From an uncultured Pseudomonadales bacterium (GTDB lineage Bacteria > Patescibacteriota > Microgenomatia > UBA1400 > PJMF01), in contig CAZUHV010000001.1 in assembly GCA_964620965.1 (NCBI GenBank), forward strand, positions 329,718-393,717: 64,000 bases of DNA, given 5' to 3'. Both the position numbers and the translations under genes were made by a program. The notes beneath the pieces were generated by a model. That model was not told where the DNA came from. It worked only from the letters and a program-made list of their open reading frames with translations, and ran no database searches. Positions 16,122 through 53,880 of this stretch are shown here, in pieces; the first letter of the stretch is position 1, and every line of letters starts with the position of its first letter.

Positions 16122-16850
16122 TTAAAAATTTCTAAAATGATCCCAATCACGAATGTCTTTTTTTGTAAGTTTTACTACACAAAAGTCTAATTTGCCAAGC
16201 CATTTTTTAAGTAAATAACTAGATATAGTTGAAGGAAAAAACCTTATACAGCTATTTTGAAAAGTTGTTAAGTTCTTAAAATACACTGGCAAGTTTTTGC
16301 TGTAAAACAGTAAAACTTTTCTAATCGAAGGGTTCCAAATATTTCTGAAAACAATCTCTCCTTTTTCATCTAAAATTCTGAACGCAAAATAAGAATCTAC
16401 CAACAACCCATCAAACTTCTCTTCGGCATCCATAAAAATAAGATCTGCCTTTTTACCTTGAAAATCAAGGTGAGCCAAAAATTGTTGAGTTGTGTATTTT
16501 TCAATAAATTCTACACTTTTACTTTTAGTAACTATTTTGTAAATAAAATCTTTTACAACTTCTTTTTCTCTATATGAGTCAATAATGTAATACTTTTTTG
16601 GCAAATAGTTTGCAGAAAGCATCCATAAAGATGAGATTCCAAACCCAAATCCACACTCAACAATTACTTTAGGCTTTTTTTTATCAACTGTATTCCGTAA
16701 AAATGTACCTTGATTAAAGTTAATAGAAATAGGAAACAAACGAGCCGATATTTTTGCTGAAAACTCTTTTTCTGAGTATATCTTTTTAAGCAGTTTTCTT
16801 ATCATTAATTTTCTGTGTTTCATGAGCAAAATCGCATTATACTGTATCAA
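16122..16850 (-). CDS. Class I SAM-dependent methyltransferase (O-methyltransferase-like)
   Basis: Motif I VIVECGFGFGISS and an acidic post-beta4 motif LIFMDAEE resembling the family-3 O-MTase LIFIDADK. Confidence 0.5.
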   Translation of the reverse strand: MIQYNAILLMKHRKLMIRKLLKKIYSEKEFSAKISARLFPISINFNQGTFLRNTVDKKKPKVIVECGFGFGISSLWMLSANYLPKKYYIIDSYREKEVVKDFIYKIVTKSKSVEFIEKYTTQQFLAHLDFQGKKADLIFMDAEEKFDGLLVDSYFAFRILDEKGEIVFRNIWNPSIRKVLLFYSKNLPVYFKNLTTFQNSCIRFFPSTISSYLLKKWLGKLDFCVVKLTKKDIRDWDHFRNF

Positions 16851-16936
16851 ATTGAAAAATTAAAATATCATCTCAAAAAGAGTAACGTTCCTACTTTTGA
16901 TTTTTTTCTAAGTTTATTTAATAATGGCAGAATCAT

Positions 16937-18304
16937 ATGAAAAAAAATGACCTAATCGGATTAAAATCGAACCCTAAAGAATTAAACCACTTTTTAAAAA
17001 CCAGTACTGTTACTGACTTACTTAAGTTACTCAAAAATTTTGGGCACATAAATAAAGAATTTGATTATCAGCCACTCCTTTCTGCTTTGAAACATTCAAA
17101 CGATAAAATAAGATCTTTAATAATAAAAAATTTAGCAAAGTCTAAAGATACCTCTTTAATCAATTTGTATGAAGATATTATCAATAGTGATAAAAGTAAT
17201 GATGTTAAAAAAGAAGCTGTCTCAGCAATAGGAAGAACCAGAAATGAAAAGGTCATTCCAATACTAACTAAATACCTAAAGCATAAGAACCCTGAGATTG
17301 TCCTTCAAGCAATTAGGGGGTTACTTGTCTTTAAAACCAATTTAGAAGTTTCTACTAATTTAAAGAAATTGAACAAACACAAAAATGAAATTGTTCGGAA
17401 AGTTATAAATATAGAATTTGGAGAAAAAAAAACTAGCAAAAAAAATGATCAAGTAAATTCACCATCTTTTTTGAAAAATTTGGCAGTACAGGGAGATGTT
17501 CTCCAAGTTCTAAAGAATGTTCCAGAAGAATCAGTACATTTAACATTTACTTCTCCTCCTTATTATAATGCTCGAGACTACTCTATATATGAGAGTTATG
17601 AAGAATATCTGGAATTTCTTTCAAGCGTTTTTAATGAAGTTCATCGAATAACAAAAGAGGGAAGATTTTTCATTCTAAACACTTCTCCAATAATAATCCC
17701 AAGAGTCGGCAGAAAATATTCAAGTATTAGATACCCTATTCCCTATGATATACATACAAAAATAATAAATAATGGCTGGGAATTTATAGATGACATAGTG
17801 TGGGTAAAAAATGAAGCTAGTGTAATTAATAGAAATGGAGGATTTTTTCAATATAGAAAACCATTATCCTACAAGCCTAATGCTAGAACAGAGTCAGTAA
17901 TGGTTTATAGAAAAAAAACCAACAAACTAATAGATTGGAATATTGACCAATACCCTGAAAAAATTATAGAAGAAAGTAAAATTAAAGGTAAGTATGAGTC
18001 ATCGAATGTTTGGGAAATCGATCCTTCTTCAGATAAAAACCATAGTGCTGTTTTTCCTGAAGAACTGTGCAATAGGATTATAAGCTTCTACTCATTTGTT
18101 GGGGATTTAATATTTGATCCATTTAGTGGAAGAGGAACTGTTGGAAAAACCGCACAAAAGTTAAAAAGAAATTATTTTTTGACTGAGATAGATGAAAAAT
18201 ACTTTAATTTTATGAAAGAATATATCGGAGAAAAAAAAGGAAATAATTTTATTTCTGTAAAGCAATTTAATGAATTTAAAAAAAATAAGGAAATACTCAA
18301 ATGA
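16937..18304 (+). CDS. DNA methyltransferase (beta-class N4-C/N6-A amino-MTase) with N-terminal HEAT/PBS-lyase repeat domain
   Basis: Residues about 20-130 form HEAT-like repeats (SLIIKNLAKSKDTSLINLYEDII...EAVSAIGRTRNEKVIPILTKYLKHKNPEIVLQAIRGL). The catalytic motif IV is TSPPY (HLTFTSPPYYNARDY) and precedes motif I FDPFSGRGTVG, i.e. beta-class permutation. Confidence 0.75.
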   Translation: MKKNDLIGLKSNPKELNHFLKTSTVTDLLKLLKNFGHINKEFDYQPLLSALKHSNDKIRSLIIKNLAKSKDTSLINLYEDIINSDKSNDVKKEAVSAIGRTRNEKVIPILTKYLKHKNPEIVLQAIRGLLVFKTNLEVSTNLKKLNKHKNEIVRKVINIEFGEKKTSKKNDQVNSPSFLKNLAVQGDVLQVLKNVPEESVHLTFTSPPYYNARDYSIYESYEEYLEFLSSVFNEVHRITKEGRFFILNTSPIIIPRVGRKYSSIRYPIPYDIHTKIINNGWEFIDDIVWVKNEASVINRNGGFFQYRKPLSYKPNARTESVMVYRKKTNKLIDWNIDQYPEKIIEESKIKGKYESSNVWEIDPSSDKNHSAVFPEELCNRIISFYSFVGDLIFDPFSGRGTVGKTAQKLKRNYFLTEIDEKYFNFMKEYIGEKKGNNFISVKQFNEFKKNKEILK

Positions 18305-19227
18305 CAATAACAGATGCTGCTGGTAAAAAAATAATAACCAGATTATTAGCTGGAGATGATTATAGAATTGAAGTACAAAACATACTAAATGCTGTATTTT
18401 TAGATTATGTTTTGGATTTTTTCAAAAAAGTTATTGATGCAAAATTAAATTCAAAAAAAATAGACACAGATTGGTATAAAAACAACTTCGTTATTGATTA
18501 CTCAGTAAAACCAGAAGATATTGCTATTTATTCTGGAATAAATAAAAAAACCATTACAAACATGTATAACTCAGGCACAAAACAAATTGTGATAAATGCA
18601 TCTGAAAACCATTATGATACTTTATTTCAAACAATTAAAGATTTAGTGAAGTATGACAATGGAATCAATATTAATTTAACAATTAAAATGAATGGTGTAA
18701 GTGTTGAGTTAGACTTAACAGAAACATTAATAGTTATCAACAGCATAGCTGTGAAAAGAGCAGCTTTCGCCGGAGGGCTATGGAGTTCAGCAGGAAAAAG
18801 AGTCGAAAAACCTTTAATGGAAACATTATGTAAGTTATATGATGTTCCAAGAGAATTCTATGAACTCAGGATAAAAAATGAAACTGTTCAAGATTTTGAT
18901 AATAATTATTTCGAAAGAGAAATTGATTTTTATTTAAAAAACAAAACTAACTTATATAAGTGTGAAGTAAAGTTGATGGGAAAAGGAAATCCTGAAAGCG
19001 CTGATGCTGTAATTGCTAGAGATAGTAGCGTTTTTATAGCTGATAAGCTTTCGGATACCAATAAAAAACAACTCAATTCACTTGGTATACTCTGGGTAGA
19101 AATGAGAAGCGAAAAAGGATTCAAAAAATTTGAAGAAATCTTAGATCTTTTAAAAATTCCCCATAAAAAACTGACAGACAATTTAAGTGAAAAAATTGAT
19201 CAAATTTTTTCTGAAATATACAATTAA
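18301..19227 (+). CDS. Putative Type II restriction endonuclease (cognate of the upstream MTase)
   Basis: Start overlaps the MTase stop (ATGA). No similarity recognised by eye, but possible PD-(D/E)xK elements (EREIDFY ... CEVKLMGKG). The call rests on operon context. Confidence 0.4.
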   Translation: MTITDAAGKKIITRLLAGDDYRIEVQNILNAVFLDYVLDFFKKVIDAKLNSKKIDTDWYKNNFVIDYSVKPEDIAIYSGINKKTITNMYNSGTKQIVINASENHYDTLFQTIKDLVKYDNGININLTIKMNGVSVELDLTETLIVINSIAVKRAAFAGGLWSSAGKRVEKPLMETLCKLYDVPREFYELRIKNETVQDFDNNYFEREIDFYLKNKTNLYKCEVKLMGKGNPESADAVIARDSSVFIADKLSDTNKKQLNSLGILWVEMRSEKGFKKFEEILDLLKIPHKKLTDNLSEKIDQIFSEIYN

Positions 19228-19328: not shown

Positions 19329-19793
19329 ATGTATATGCAAAATGAAAAATCAAATAATAAAGAGCAAATAAGTATTGTTGAGTATAACTATAAATTACAG
19401 CAAGCATTAATTACTCTTTTCTTATGGGGAGCCCCCGCTGGGTTTTTAGAATATGTTCAAGAAAATGCATATAATCGGCCGAATGTTTTTTATCAGTTAA
19501 GCGAATCAATGGGTCATCAAAATTCCTTAGCTGGAGCAGCAGTTTTTGGTGCAGGAGAACATATCTTAGATTTTTTAGCAGAATCATTTTTTCCTGAAAA
19601 TGAAAAGCTGAGAAAAATAATCCCTTGGGTTTTATTTACAATAGCGACAATTTATAATCTTGCTCAACTAATAGAACCTCAATACGCGGATAACGCTGCA
19701 GCGGACATTTTTTGGTCTGGAACTGCGATTGGTATTTCGAGATTAATACGCAAAGTGTTCTCTGGAATTTATAAAAGGAAAACTGAGCAATAA
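19329..19793 (+). CDS. Hypothetical protein
   Basis: 154 aa ORF with two hydrophobic segments; no recognisable motif. Confidence 0.35.
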   Translation: MYMQNEKSNNKEQISIVEYNYKLQQALITLFLWGAPAGFLEYVQENAYNRPNVFYQLSESMGHQNSLAGAAVFGAGEHILDFLAESFFPENEKLRKIIPWVLFTIATIYNLAQLIEPQYADNAAADIFWSGTAIGISRLIRKVFSGIYKRKTEQ

Positions 19794-52851: not shown

Positions 52852-53880
52852 TTATTGAGTGACCACCCGCGGCATTGGCGGGCAATTACCCGGATCAATC
52901 GGGGTAAACTGTGAAAAATCGTTTCCTCCCGAATTACCGGGATCTGGCAGGCCACCAGGAGTGGCAGGAGGTTTAACTCCAGTGAGGATGGTGCTCAGGT
53001 GCGCGCCACCGGTGTTAACGATGGCTGCGATGCCTTGATACACCCTGCCTGTTGTAGTGACGATCTGTTGAGCGGCAAAAAAGATCAAGATTGCGCCGTC
53101 CTCTCTCTGACCACACCAGTCGGGTTTTGGCCCACCGGTTTCAGTGGCAAGCCAAGAGGTCATAACCGCAACCCACCCAAGCATTTTCAACTTAGATGTG
53201 TAAGGACCACGGTCATGGTTTTGGAGGTGAGGGGGAGGTGCCGGAATGCTGGGCGGAACCACAACATCCGGGAGGAGGTTGGGGTTGCGGGCCATAAGCA
53301 CCCGCGGCATCTGCGACAAAGCATAGCCGGTTGTCAGAACCAACGCTCCAGAAACGAAAATGTAAAGCACCGACCCAATGTCGGCAGGTCCTGGTTCAGG
53401 ACCATCAAGCAAAGCAATGCCACCTGCCGGAACAAAAACGGCGGCCATCATAGACATGTCTGCTCCTTCACCAGGACAGACAAACGCTATTCCTTCTTCA
53501 GTAAGATATACCTGTTCCTCGGGGCACTCAACGTACCCCTGTGTCTGTTGGCGATACACAATCTCCTCGTAAGATGGACCGGAGTAGCTCCGATAGATCT
53601 CACTACCTGGTGCGGCCGGAGCAGGCACCGGAGTGATAATCAACTCAGAGTCTTCAGGCAAAAAATCAGGCCGGGGAGTGCTAGTCCCCGTAGGAAAATT
53701 CTGATCCACGCTCACGGGAGAGGTAGAAGATGAGCTTTCAGGAACAACAGGTTCCGGATGGGTTTCAACCACTGGACTGGAATTCTGAGAAACTTCCATC
53801 GGGACGCAACCAACAAGTAAGCCCAACACTACCAGAATGGTAAGGGGCTTGTACAAACGCTTGAACAATCGGGTTAACAT
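52852..53880 (-). CDS. Secreted Pro/Gly-rich lipoprotein, function unknown; strongly GC-rich gene
   Basis: Signal peptide with lipobox (ILVVLGLLVGC). 342 aa rich in P/G/T. Nucleotide composition visibly much higher GC than every neighbour. Confidence 0.65.
   Translation of the reverse strand: MLTRLFKRLYKPLTILVVLGLLVGCVPMEVSQNSSPVVETHPEPVVPESSSSTSPVSVDQNFPTGTSTPRPDFLPEDSELIITPVPAPAAPGSEIYRSYSGPSYEEIVYRQQTQGYVECPEEQVYLTEEGIAFVCPGEGADMSMMAAVFVPAGGIALLDGPEPGPADIGSVLYIFVSGALVLTTGYALSQMPRVLMARNPNLLPDVVVPPSIPAPPPHLQNHDRGPYTSKLKMLGWVAVMTSWLATETGGPKPDWCGQREDGAILIFFAAQQIVTTTGRVYQGIAAIVNTGGAHLSTILTGVKPPATPGGLPDPGNSGGNDFSQFTPIDPGNCPPMPRVVTQ

What the first reader, a model, noticed from the sequence alone, without database searches (positions are those of the whole stretch)
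16937..19227. Type II-like restriction-modification pair whose methyltransferase carries an N-terminal HEAT-repeat domain
The beta-class amino-MTase (TSPPY motif IV, then FDPFSGRGTVG motif I) has about 130 N-terminal residues forming HEAT/PBS-lyase-type helical repeats. That is an unusual fusion for a DNA MTase and could be a protein-interaction or regulatory module.

The downstream 308-aa ORF overlaps the MTase stop (ATGA). It has no recognisable family but is a likely cognate endonuclease (possible D...E-V-K).
Basis: partly seen in the sequence, partly recalled or inferred. Interest (0 to 1): 0.5.

Follow-up and report, generated by a model that had tools for sequence, protein, structure and literature searches.

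The report
CfrBI-family restriction-modification operon with HEAT-tagged methyltransferase
This is an intact two-gene restriction-modification (DNA self-marking plus foreign-DNA-cutting) system of the known CfrBI family. Its methyltransferase carries an N-terminal HEAT-repeat domain that is standard for a very large, horizontally mobile clade but whose function nobody has described.

Summary
16937-18304(+) encodes a 455-aa beta-class amino-methyltransferase: HEAT solenoid aa 1-161, flexible linker, then a PF01555 core with SPPY motif IV and FxGxG motif I. 18301-19227(+) encodes a 308-aa protein that overlaps it by ATGA.

It passes Pfam RE_CfrBI (73.9 bits against a cut-off of 25) and a PADLOC type II REase model (2.7e-102), and it has an invariant D209...E222-V-K224.

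The fusion is not rare. More than 5000 proteins and at least 591 species genomes, from DPANN archaea to Gammaproteobacteria, carry the same HEAT-MTase at about 60% identity. The REase follows immediately in about 72 of 77 loci, and the ATGA overlap is kept in 52 of about 70.

The MTase core is 46% identical to a classic CfrBI-type plasmid MTase (CCWWGG, m4C), but that enzyme has a different N-terminus and divergent, methylation-controlled genes.

Phage orphan copies 60% identical to the core lack HEAT, so HEAT is probably dispensable for methylation. Its role is unresolved: no conserved operator was found, and there is no special co-evolution with the REase.

Verdict: an ordinary RM system whose accessory domain is common but uncharacterised.

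The parts
16897..16925 (+). Candidate sigma-70-like promoter (TTGATT-17-AATAAT) 12 nt upstream of the MTase start
   Evidence: It matches 9 of 12 positions, and the number of such sites in the region is no higher than in shuffles, so this is only a candidate.
16937..18304 (+). HEAT-MTase gene (455 aa)
   Evidence: ORF. Pfam HEAT_2 + HEAT + N6_N4_Mtase. PADLOC MTase_II, 5.4e-80. More than 5000 homologues with the same architecture.
16937..17419 (+). N-terminal HEAT solenoid, aa 1-161: a three-helix cap (aa 3-33) plus four helix-hairpin repeats with a period of about 31 aa (aa 45-161)
   Evidence: AF2 model with pLDDT above 90 and 11 helices. Pfam. alphaRep, YibA and 6veh hits with the family profile. 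Repeat register. Invariant R59, K64, N65, K68, E93, S96, G99, R100, Q124, R127.
17420..17476 (+). Low-confidence, lysine-rich linker, aa 162-180
   Evidence: pLDDT falls to about 57 and column identity is 0.49. Phage HEAT-less homologues start exactly after it, at query aa 175.
17477..18226 (+). Beta-class amino-MTase core, aa 181-430, including the presumed target-recognition region at about aa 290-365
   Evidence: PF01555, 7.5e-39. Foldseek hits to TTHA0409, rotifer N4CMT, CcrM and M.PvuII. 46% identity to a CfrBI-type plasmid MTase.
17549..17563 (+). Motif IV, TSPPY (aa 205-209)
   Evidence: Invariant in 48 homologues. SPPY is the form typical of N4-cytosine MTases (established knowledge). 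M.CfrBI is an m4C enzyme (PMC6556831).
18113..18145 (+). Motif I, FDPFSGRGTVG (aa 393-403), the AdoMet-binding loop
   Evidence: F393, D394, P395, F396, G398, G400 and T401 are invariant.
18287..18304 (+). Translational-coupling junction: AAGGA (18287-18291), then ATGA (18301-18304) where the REase start overlaps the MTase stop
   Evidence: The same 4-nt overlap occurs in 52 of about 70 related loci.
18301..19227 (+). CfrBI-family restriction endonuclease gene (308 aa)
18805..18972 (+). Putative catalytic residues of the REase: E169 (18805-18807), D209 (18925-18927), E222-V-K224 (18964-18972)
   Evidence: All are invariant in 39 homologues. D209 and E222-K224 lie on adjacent predicted strands, E208-213 and E218-224. 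The catalytic assignment itself is inferred.

Best explanation
The locus is an intact, horizontally acquired Type IIP restriction-modification operon of the CfrBI family.

The first gene makes a beta-class amino-methyltransferase that most likely places N4-methylcytosine on a CCWWGG-like palindrome. The second gene is translationally coupled to it through an ATGA overlap. It makes a PD-(D/E)XK endonuclease that cuts the same site when unmethylated. Unlike archetypal CfrBI, expression is not controlled by a methylatable site in a divergent promoter; the genes form one M-then-R transcription unit.

The N-terminal 160 aa of the MTase form a four-repeat PBS/alphaRep-type HEAT solenoid joined by a flexible linker. 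This domain is ancestral to, and almost universally kept in, a huge mobile clade. It is not needed for catalysis or site recognition.

My best guess for its role (about 0.35-0.4, inferred) is an accessory binding module for a partner that travels with the system. The most likely partner is DNA, bound non-specifically through a conserved basic stripe on the B-helices, or the MTase itself through core docking or dimerisation. Such a module would raise methylation efficiency so that the host is protected when M and R are made together.

Shown: gene structure, family membership, conservation, operon linkage, and the absence of HEAT in orphan phage copies. Inferred: m4C, the recognition site, and the HEAT mechanism.
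For: Gene structure and motifs. Pfam and PADLOC assignments for both proteins.

The MTase core is 46% identical with 5 gaps in 281 aa, including the TRD region, to the MTase of a Klebsiella plasmid. That plasmid's system matches the published CfrBI layout: divergent genes, with CCATGG in the 76-bp intergenic promoter (CfrBI is CCWWGG and m4C per PMC6556831, and bioRxiv 10.64898/2025.12.04.692298).

The structural neighbours of both proteins are the same ones the CfrBI authors report for CfrBI.

The REase lies immediately downstream in about 72 of 77 loci with room, and the ATGA overlap occurs in 52 of about 70.

Operon GC is below flank GC here (0.284 against 0.352) and in 45 of 47 loci, and the flanking ORFs are not co-conserved.

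HEAT: AF2 pLDDT above 90. Mean net charge is +5.3, with invariant K64, K68, R92, R100 and R127. Phage homologues 58-60% identical over the core, with zero gaps, begin at aa 175 with a stop codon just upstream and no REase. HEAT loss is rare and secondary, since 114 of the 120 nearest relatives of the phage copy keep HEAT. HEAT divergence tracks the MTase core (partial r 0.68) far more than the REase (0.17). The host range spans archaea and bacteria, so a host-specific protein partner is unlikely.
Against: No activity, methylation or cleavage data exist for this clade in anything I could search.

The two REases (window against CfrBI-type) are only 21% identical, pairwise E 0.13, so the specificity could differ.

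Site avoidance does not single out CCWWGG. In the window it is 14 observed against about 29 expected, but the whole CCNNGG class is equally depleted (31 against 66). In 839 kb of pooled host flanks CCWWGG (O/E 0.71) is less depleted than GGCC, GATC or CCNNGG.

The REase model has low confidence (pLDDT 67.6), and Foldseek gave no significant hit.

The DNA-binding or self-association role for HEAT is not demonstrated. PBS/alphaRep-type HEAT repeats are classically protein binders. I had no access to model coordinates or to complex prediction. The phage copies are assumed, not shown, to be active.
Confidence: 0.8

Rival explanations
1. The HEAT domain is a REase-directed module. It binds the cognate endonuclease, forming an M-R complex or a sequestering, antitoxin-like complex, and so sets the timing or level of restriction. 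In this M-then-R operon it would replace a C protein or promoter methylation.
For: HEAT repeats of this type are classic protein-binding scaffolds, and the designed alphaRep binders are the best PDB matches. The N-terminal domain type co-varies with REase subtype across the superfamily: HEAT with the roughly 305-aa REase, the CfrBI-type N-terminus with the 355-aa REase, and no N-terminus with no REase in phage orphans. No other regulator is present, and the genes are translationally coupled.
Against: Partial correlation of HEAT with REase divergence, given the core, is only 0.17, against 0.45 for core-REase and 0.68 for HEAT-core. HEAT is retained in copies that have lost the REase: Microcystis L053 and viral L086. 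The co-variation can be explained by simple co-inheritance within clades. No fusion of HEAT to the REase was seen among 120 REase homologues.
Confidence: 0.2
2. The HEAT domain is a sequence-specific autoregulator, analogous to the N-terminal HTH region of M.SsoII or M.EcoRII. It would bind an operator in the operon's promoter to repress M and permit R.
For: There is precedent for N-terminal regulatory domains on type II MTases (M.SsoII, PMC3978073). The HEAT domain is basic, and a flexible linker separates it from the core.
Against: No conserved k-mer or operator-like element occurs in the 150 nt upstream of 77 loci beyond AT-rich words, and CCWWGG is present upstream in only 1 of 77. There is no HTH. 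With a single M-then-R unit and a 4-nt overlap there is no separate R promoter to activate.
Confidence: 0.07
3. The system is a genuine RM system but recognises a site other than CCWWGG, for example the broader CCNNGG or an unrelated palindrome, because the REase is only a distant CfrBI relative.
For: The REases share 21% identity. In the window all CCNNGG subclasses are equally depleted, about two-fold. In pooled host flanks CCNNGG (O/E 0.65, z -13.4) is more depleted than CCWWGG (0.71, z -5.9).
Against: The MTase core, including the TRD region, is 46% identical and nearly gap-free against the CfrBI-type MTase. GGNNCC, GGCC and GATC are similarly or more depleted, so the avoidance signal is generic.
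Confidence: 0.35
4. The pair is not a working RM system: either a solitary MTase next to an unrelated or inactivated gene, or a decaying remnant.
For: Orphaned or decayed versions do exist elsewhere: L053, L067 and L075 lack the REase, and L047, L063 and L087 keep only fragments.
Against: In the window both ORFs are full length and keep every family-invariant residue, including SPPY, FxGxG and D209/E222/K224. A REase 100% identical is found in four other assemblies.
Confidence: 0.04

Closest known systems
CfrBI restriction-modification system (Citrobacter freundii plasmid pZE8; represented here by Klebsiella plasmid NZ_CP063000.1, locus L084)
   Same: The REase passes the same Pfam family, PF09516. 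The MTase core is 46% identical, beta-class, with SPPY motif IV. Both proteins have the same structural neighbours. It is a type IIP system with separate M and R.
   Different: The CfrBI-type MTase (376 aa) has an unrelated N-terminus of about 100 aa with no HEAT. Its REase is 355 aa and only 21% identical. Its genes are divergent, with a CCWWGG site in the shared promoter that provides methylation-dependent control. Here the genes are co-directional with an ATGA overlap and no upstream site.
Type II MTases with N-terminal regulatory domains (M.SsoII, M.Ecl18kI, M.EcoRII; N-terminal HTH region)
   Same: An extra N-terminal domain joined by a flexible linker to a complete MTase, in a system that lacks a C protein (PMC3978073).
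   Different: Those enzymes are C5-MTases with an HTH that binds a defined operator. Here the domain is a HEAT solenoid, and no conserved operator was found.
CcrM and other beta-class MTases with an accessory DNA-binding domain (PDB 6pbd); TTHA0409 (2zig); rotifer N4CMT (8s9o); M.PvuII (1boo)
   Same: The same catalytic fold and motif order (Foldseek E 1e-14 to 1e-10). CcrM shows that a beta-class core can use an appended domain for non-specific DNA contacts (established knowledge).
   Different: CcrM's extra domain is C-terminal and is not HEAT. None of the solved beta-class MTases has an N-terminal solenoid.
PBS-lyase/alphaRep-type HEAT repeat proteins (alphaRep designs, E. coli YibA 1oyz, 6veh)
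   Same: A 31-aa helix-hairpin repeat with the V-R-x-x-A...L-G signature, hit strongly by the family profile (E down to 3e-52 for a multi-repeat design; YibA 6e-10).
   Different: Those are stand-alone binders or lyase subunits. Here only four repeats are fused to a DNA MTase. Family-invariant polar residues occupy the positions that are hypervariable binding positions in alphaReps (my mapping, based on recalled alphaRep design literature).
HEAT-like-repeat DNA glycosylases AlkC/AlkD
   Same: Precedent that a short basic helical-repeat solenoid can bind the DNA backbone (from memory, not tested here).
   Different: No sequence or profile similarity was detected. That repeat type is different.

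Membership tests
Type II (IIP) restriction-modification system | Adjacent, separate genes for a DNA MTase and a REase | tested here: met
   The adjacency is conserved in about 72 of 77 related loci.
Type II (IIP) restriction-modification system | The REase cleaves, and the MTase protects, the same defined sequence | not testable with these tools
   This needs cloning, cleavage mapping and methylome data. Site-avoidance statistics were inconclusive.
CfrBI restriction endonuclease family (Pfam PF09516) | Whole-protein score above Pfam's gathering threshold | tested here: met
   73.9 bits against a cut-off of 25, covering profile positions 5-254 of 257. The Klebsiella CfrBI-type REase scores 64.4 bits.
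CfrBI restriction endonuclease family (Pfam PF09516) | PD-(D/E)XK-type catalytic core | tested here: inconclusive
CfrBI-type system (as characterised) | Recognition of CCWWGG with cleavage at C^CWWGG | not testable with these tools
   Inferred only, from 46% MTase-core identity. Depletion of CCWWGG in the window (14 against about 29) is not specific.
CfrBI-type system (as characterised) | Divergent M and R genes whose shared promoter contains a CfrBI site, giving methylation-dependent control | tested here: not met
   The genes are co-directional with an ATGA overlap. There is no CCWWGG between 15256 and 19623 in the window. An upstream site occurs in only 1 of 77 loci. The comparator L084 does have the site.
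Beta-class N4/N6 amino-DNA-methyltransferase (PF01555) | PF01555 above threshold, with motif IV (S/D/N)PP(Y/F) N-terminal to motif I FxGxG | tested here: met
   134.4 bits against a cut-off of 26.7. TSPPY at aa 205-209 and FDPFSGRG at aa 393-400.
N4-cytosine-specific MTase | Transfers methyl to N4 of cytosine | not testable with these tools
   SPPY is the form typical of m4C enzymes, and the closest characterised relative, M.CfrBI, is m4C (PMC6556831). Solved m4C enzymes are among the best hits. The chemistry was not measured.
HEAT repeat domain (PF13646 / PF02985) | Pfam score above threshold and tandem helix-hairpin repeats of about 31-40 aa | tested here: met
   HEAT_2 48.1 against 27.7; HEAT 24.2 against 23.5. 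Four hairpins with a 31-aa period at pLDDT above 90. alphaRep and YibA hits.
C-protein-controlled type II RM | A small HTH controller gene next to R, with a C-box operator | tested here: not met
   No such ORF lies between or beside the genes. The flanking ORFs are a Methyltransf_24 protein and an unknown 154-aa protein, and neither is conserved with the system elsewhere.
SsoII-like self-regulating MTase | An N-terminal HTH binding a conserved operator upstream of the operon | tested here: not met
   The N-terminus is HEAT, not HTH. No conserved upstream element was found in 77 loci.

The most novel reading that the evidence does not exclude
The HEAT solenoid is a previously unrecognised control module of type II RM systems. 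It would be a portable protein-binding domain through which the MTase physically gates its own endonuclease, or senses phage anti-restriction proteins such as DNA mimics through its basic concave face. This would let a promoter-less, regulator-less two-gene cassette establish safely in hosts from DPANN archaea to Proteobacteria, and it would explain why phage copies, which need only self-protection, discard the domain.
Probability: 0.15. Interest if true: 0.6.

Novelty: new variant of a known kind. Interest (0 to 1): 0.3.

Why it matters
As an RM system this is routine. The useful points are three.

First, a single, very compact M-then-R cassette with about 60% protein identity is spread across at least 591 species in both prokaryotic domains. 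That makes it one of the more promiscuous RM lineages, and a candidate source of a robust m4C MTase and REase pair.

Second, its MTase always carries a four-repeat HEAT domain that no paper or solved structure accounts for. Phages that borrow the MTase delete the domain, which gives a clean natural experiment pointing to a non-catalytic role.

Third, relative to CfrBI, the textbook example of promoter-methylation control, this sister clade has swapped both the N-terminal domain and the regulatory logic. This could show how RM cassettes solve the 'methylate before you cut' problem without a dedicated regulator.

Tried and rejected
1. **Recognition site from site avoidance.** I tried the window alone and 839 kb of host flanks from 73 loci. 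CCWWGG is depleted, but no more than CCNNGG, GGCC or GATC, so I rejected this as evidence of specificity.

2. **CfrBI-style promoter methylation or an operator upstream.** Neither was found.

3. **Mirror-tree co-evolution of HEAT with the REase.** There was no specific signal.

4. **tblastn of the REase against PLSDB plasmids.** No hit. The comparator was reached through the MTase instead.

6. **AFDB fold search for the two-domain architecture.** The library was unavailable.

7. **HEAT-only exhaustive search for alternative fusions.** This specific HEAT module was found fused only to this MTase family, apart from generic giant HEAT proteins.

8. **Mobile-element boundaries such as direct or inverted repeats.** None were convincing.

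9. **Host identification.** Attempts through cluster names, encoding contigs and RNA genes failed.

10. **Literature on HEAT-MTase fusions.** None was found. The hits in the Microcystis, casposon and jumbo-phage papers were irrelevant.
Full report
**Observation.**
The second starts at an ATG whose last bases form the TGA stop of the first (ATGA at 18301-18304), and an AAGGA sits 9 nt upstream. The first protein has TSPPY at aa 205-209 and FDPFSGRGTVG at aa 393-403. That is motif IV before motif I, the beta-class permutation. The region has lower GC (0.28-0.29) than its surroundings (about 0.35).

**What the two proteins are.**
- MTase: Pfam gives HEAT_2 (aa 45-127, 1.4e-12), HEAT (aa 106-129) and N6_N4_Mtase (aa 200-427, 7.5e-39).
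- Second protein: PF09516 RE_CfrBI at 1.6e-20 (73.9 bits against a cut-off of 25).
- PADLOC: MTase_II at 5.4e-80, and a full-length REase_II match at 2.7e-102.

Its guess of a D...E-V-K motif is right: D209, E222, V223 and K224, plus E169, are invariant in 39 homologues.

The MTase model is better (pLDDT 81.3). Residues 1-161 are 11 helices at pLDDT above 90: a three-helix cap plus four hairpins with a 31-aa period. Residues 162-180 are a low-confidence linker, and the rest is an alpha/beta MTase core. The core's nearest solved structures are TTHA0409, the rotifer N4-cytosine MTase, CcrM, M.PvuII, M.MboIIA and M1.HpyAVI, and none of them has an N-terminal solenoid.

**How common it is.**
The HEAT-MTase is not an oddity. 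A homology search returned more than 5000 proteins, and the best 120 are all 435-515 aa (nearly all 445-480 aa), about 57-66% identical, with the same HEAT + N6_N4_Mtase architecture. Some are named 'HEAT repeat domain-containing protein' or 'DNA methyltransferase'. The REase has 4675 homologues of about 304 aa, some named 'CfrBI family restriction endonuclease'.

They span Woese-, Pace- and Altiarchaeota, Methanosarcinales, many CPR phyla, Ignavibacteria, Bacteroidota, Chloroflexota, spirochaetes, Bdellovibrionales, Gammaproteobacteria, Microcystis, Conservatibacter, Leptospira biflexa and Melioribacter.

In 80 fetched loci:
- The REase gene follows the MTase immediately in about 72 of the 77 with room. 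A few are orphaned (L053, L067, L075) or retain only REase fragments (L047, L063).
- The 4-nt overlap is kept in 52 of about 70.
- The operon's GC is below that of its flanks in 45 of 47 loci.
- Neither flanking ORF of the window travels with it.

The unit is a two-gene, highly mobile cassette.

**Relation to CfrBI.**
CfrBI recognises CCWWGG and its MTase makes N4-methylcytosine. Its genes are divergent and share a promoter region containing one CfrBI site, whose methylation switches transcription from M to R (PMC6556831; bioRxiv 10.64898/2025.12.04.692298; PMC12707154).

A 5.4-kb mobilizable Klebsiella plasmid carries just such a system: a 355-aa 'CfrBI family restriction endonuclease' divergent from a 376-aa MTase, with CCATGG in the 76-bp spacer. 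Compared with it:
- The window's MTase is 46% identical to that MTase over aa 152-428, with only 5 gaps, including the presumed target-recognition region. The plasmid enzyme's first 100 aa or so are unrelated and have no Pfam match.
- The two REases are only 21% identical (E 0.13 pairwise), though both pass PF09516.

The structural neighbours I obtained for both window proteins are the same ones the CfrBI authors list for CfrBI. I therefore file the pair as a distinct clade within the CfrBI family. The fold, and probably the chemistry and a related site, are the same. The N-terminal domain, gene order and regulation differ: no CCWWGG lies upstream of M here or in 76 of 77 relatives.

**Recognition site.**
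I tried to infer it from site avoidance. CCWWGG is two-fold depleted in the window: 14 observed against 28-34 expected under Markov orders 1-4. But the whole CCNNGG class is equally depleted (31 against 66). In 839 kb pooled from 73 carriers, CCWWGG (O/E 0.71) is less depleted than GGCC, GATC, GGNNCC or CCNNGG. This is not diagnostic. CCWWGG-like specificity rests only on MTase homology.

**The HEAT domain.**
It is under purifying selection but evolves fastest: mean Kimura distance is 0.69, against 0.29 for the core and 0.47 for the REase. Invariant residues include R59, K64, N65, K68, E93, S96, G99, R100, Q124 and R127. Its mean net charge is +5.3.

A family profile hits designed alphaRep proteins, YibA (1oyz) and anonymous HEAT proteins, so it is the PBS-lyase type. 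By my mapping onto the alphaRep repeat, which relies on recalled design literature, the invariant polar residues fall on the B-helix positions that form the binding surface.

An exhaustive search with the HEAT region alone found this module fused only to this MTase family, once with an extra Peptidase_S24 domain. The remaining hits were generic giant HEAT proteins.

Viral contigs give a natural experiment:
- Three carry the full HEAT-MTase, one of them with an intact REase.
- L088-L090 carry 251-284-aa ORFs that are 58-60% identical to the core with zero gaps. They begin at query aa 175, with a stop codon just upstream and no REase. They sit in phage replication or lysis neighbourhoods.
- The L089 protein nests inside the HEAT clade. 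114 of its 120 nearest relatives (63-72% identical) have HEAT, so the loss is rare and secondary.

HEAT is therefore probably dispensable for catalysis and recognition, yet it is almost always kept in cellular copies.

**Tests of HEAT function.**
- (a) Autoregulator: no conserved upstream operator was found.
- (b) REase partner: partial correlation of HEAT with REase divergence, controlling for the core, is 0.17 (p about 0.02). This compares with 0.45 for core-REase and 0.68 for HEAT-core. HEAT also persists in REase-less copies.
- (c) Across the superfamily the N-terminal type co-varies with REase subtype, but co-inheritance explains that equally well.
- (d) The host range across two domains argues against a host-specific protein partner.

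I therefore favour, weakly (about 0.35-0.4), an intrinsic accessory role. This would be non-specific DNA binding by the basic face and/or docking or dimerisation with the MTase core, improving protection in a cassette where M and R are co-translated. A REase-gating role is about 0.2 and an operator-binding role about 0.07.

**Literature and novelty.**
Full-text searches found no description of a HEAT-MTase fusion, and no solved MTase has one. Annotation pipelines nevertheless already label these proteins. The window's instance is one of thousands.

As a clade it is an uncharacterised variant of a known kind: a CfrBI-family type II RM with a different N-terminal domain and a different regulatory layout. 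Interest is modest (0.3). The RM call is ordinary. The open question is what a conserved HEAT solenoid does on a DNA methyltransferase.

Noticed in passing
L088:3971-4825, L089:3986-4834, L090:4001-4756 (viral contigs): Phage-borne MTases of 251-284 aa, 58-60% identical to the window MTase core, lacking the HEAT domain and any REase. L089 sits in a replication module next to another DNA MTase, and L090 lies near an endolysin. They look like captured, truncated copies used for self-protection against this RM family.
   Followed up: partly
P0372 (557 aa) and L087:3584-5275 (563-aa ORF, viral): Longer variants of the HEAT-MTase exist. P0372 has an N-terminal Peptidase_S24 (LexA/CI-like) domain before HEAT. 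The L087 ORF has an N-terminal extension of about 139 aa and only a 25-aa REase remnant downstream.
   Followed up: no
L053:5965-8124 (Microcystis aeruginosa NIES-4325); also L067, L075, L047, L063: Orphaned or decaying versions. Microcystis keeps an intact HEAT-MTase, but the REase is replaced by a 206-aa ORF with no Pfam match. L047 and L063 keep only N-terminal REase fragments.
   Followed up: partly
L091/L092:2018-4055 and L098:3608-6080 (viral contigs): CfrBI-type systems (MTase with the CfrBI-type N-terminus plus a 355-aa-type REase) occur on viral contigs in gene orders different from the divergent plasmid arrangement: M-then-R in L091 and L092, convergent in L098.
   Followed up: no
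window 16122-16850 (-): A 242-aa ORF with a Methyltransf_24 (class I SAM MTase) domain lies in the same low-GC stretch, divergent from the RM operon. It is not found next to the system in any of the other loci.
   Followed up: partly
window 19329-19793 (+): A 154-aa ORF with no family hit lies directly downstream of the REase. It is conserved in the near-identical Logan contigs L001 and L002 but not in other carriers of the RM system.
   Followed up: partly
window 52852-53880 (-): A GC spike (0.515 in a roughly 0.35 genome) coincides with a 342-aa Pro/Gly/Ala-rich ORF that has an N-terminal hydrophobic segment. No RNA gene is present there.
   Followed up: no
window, whole 64 kb: The whole CCNNGG class is about two-fold under-represented (31 observed against 66 expected), not just CCWWGG. 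AARYTT and AAATTT are also depleted.
   Followed up: partly
window MTase aa 34, 37, 116, 118: The window protein departs from near-invariant family residues in the HEAT domain: basic to N34 and H37, and acidic to H116 and N118, the latter two in the D-x-D turn of repeat 3. It is therefore a slightly divergent member.
   Followed up: no
L084:1108-2172 (-) compared with window 18964-18972: In the low-confidence pairwise alignment, the CfrBI-type REase has D-I-G where the window enzyme has E222-V-K224. The catalytic lysine may sit elsewhere in the archetype.
   Followed up: no
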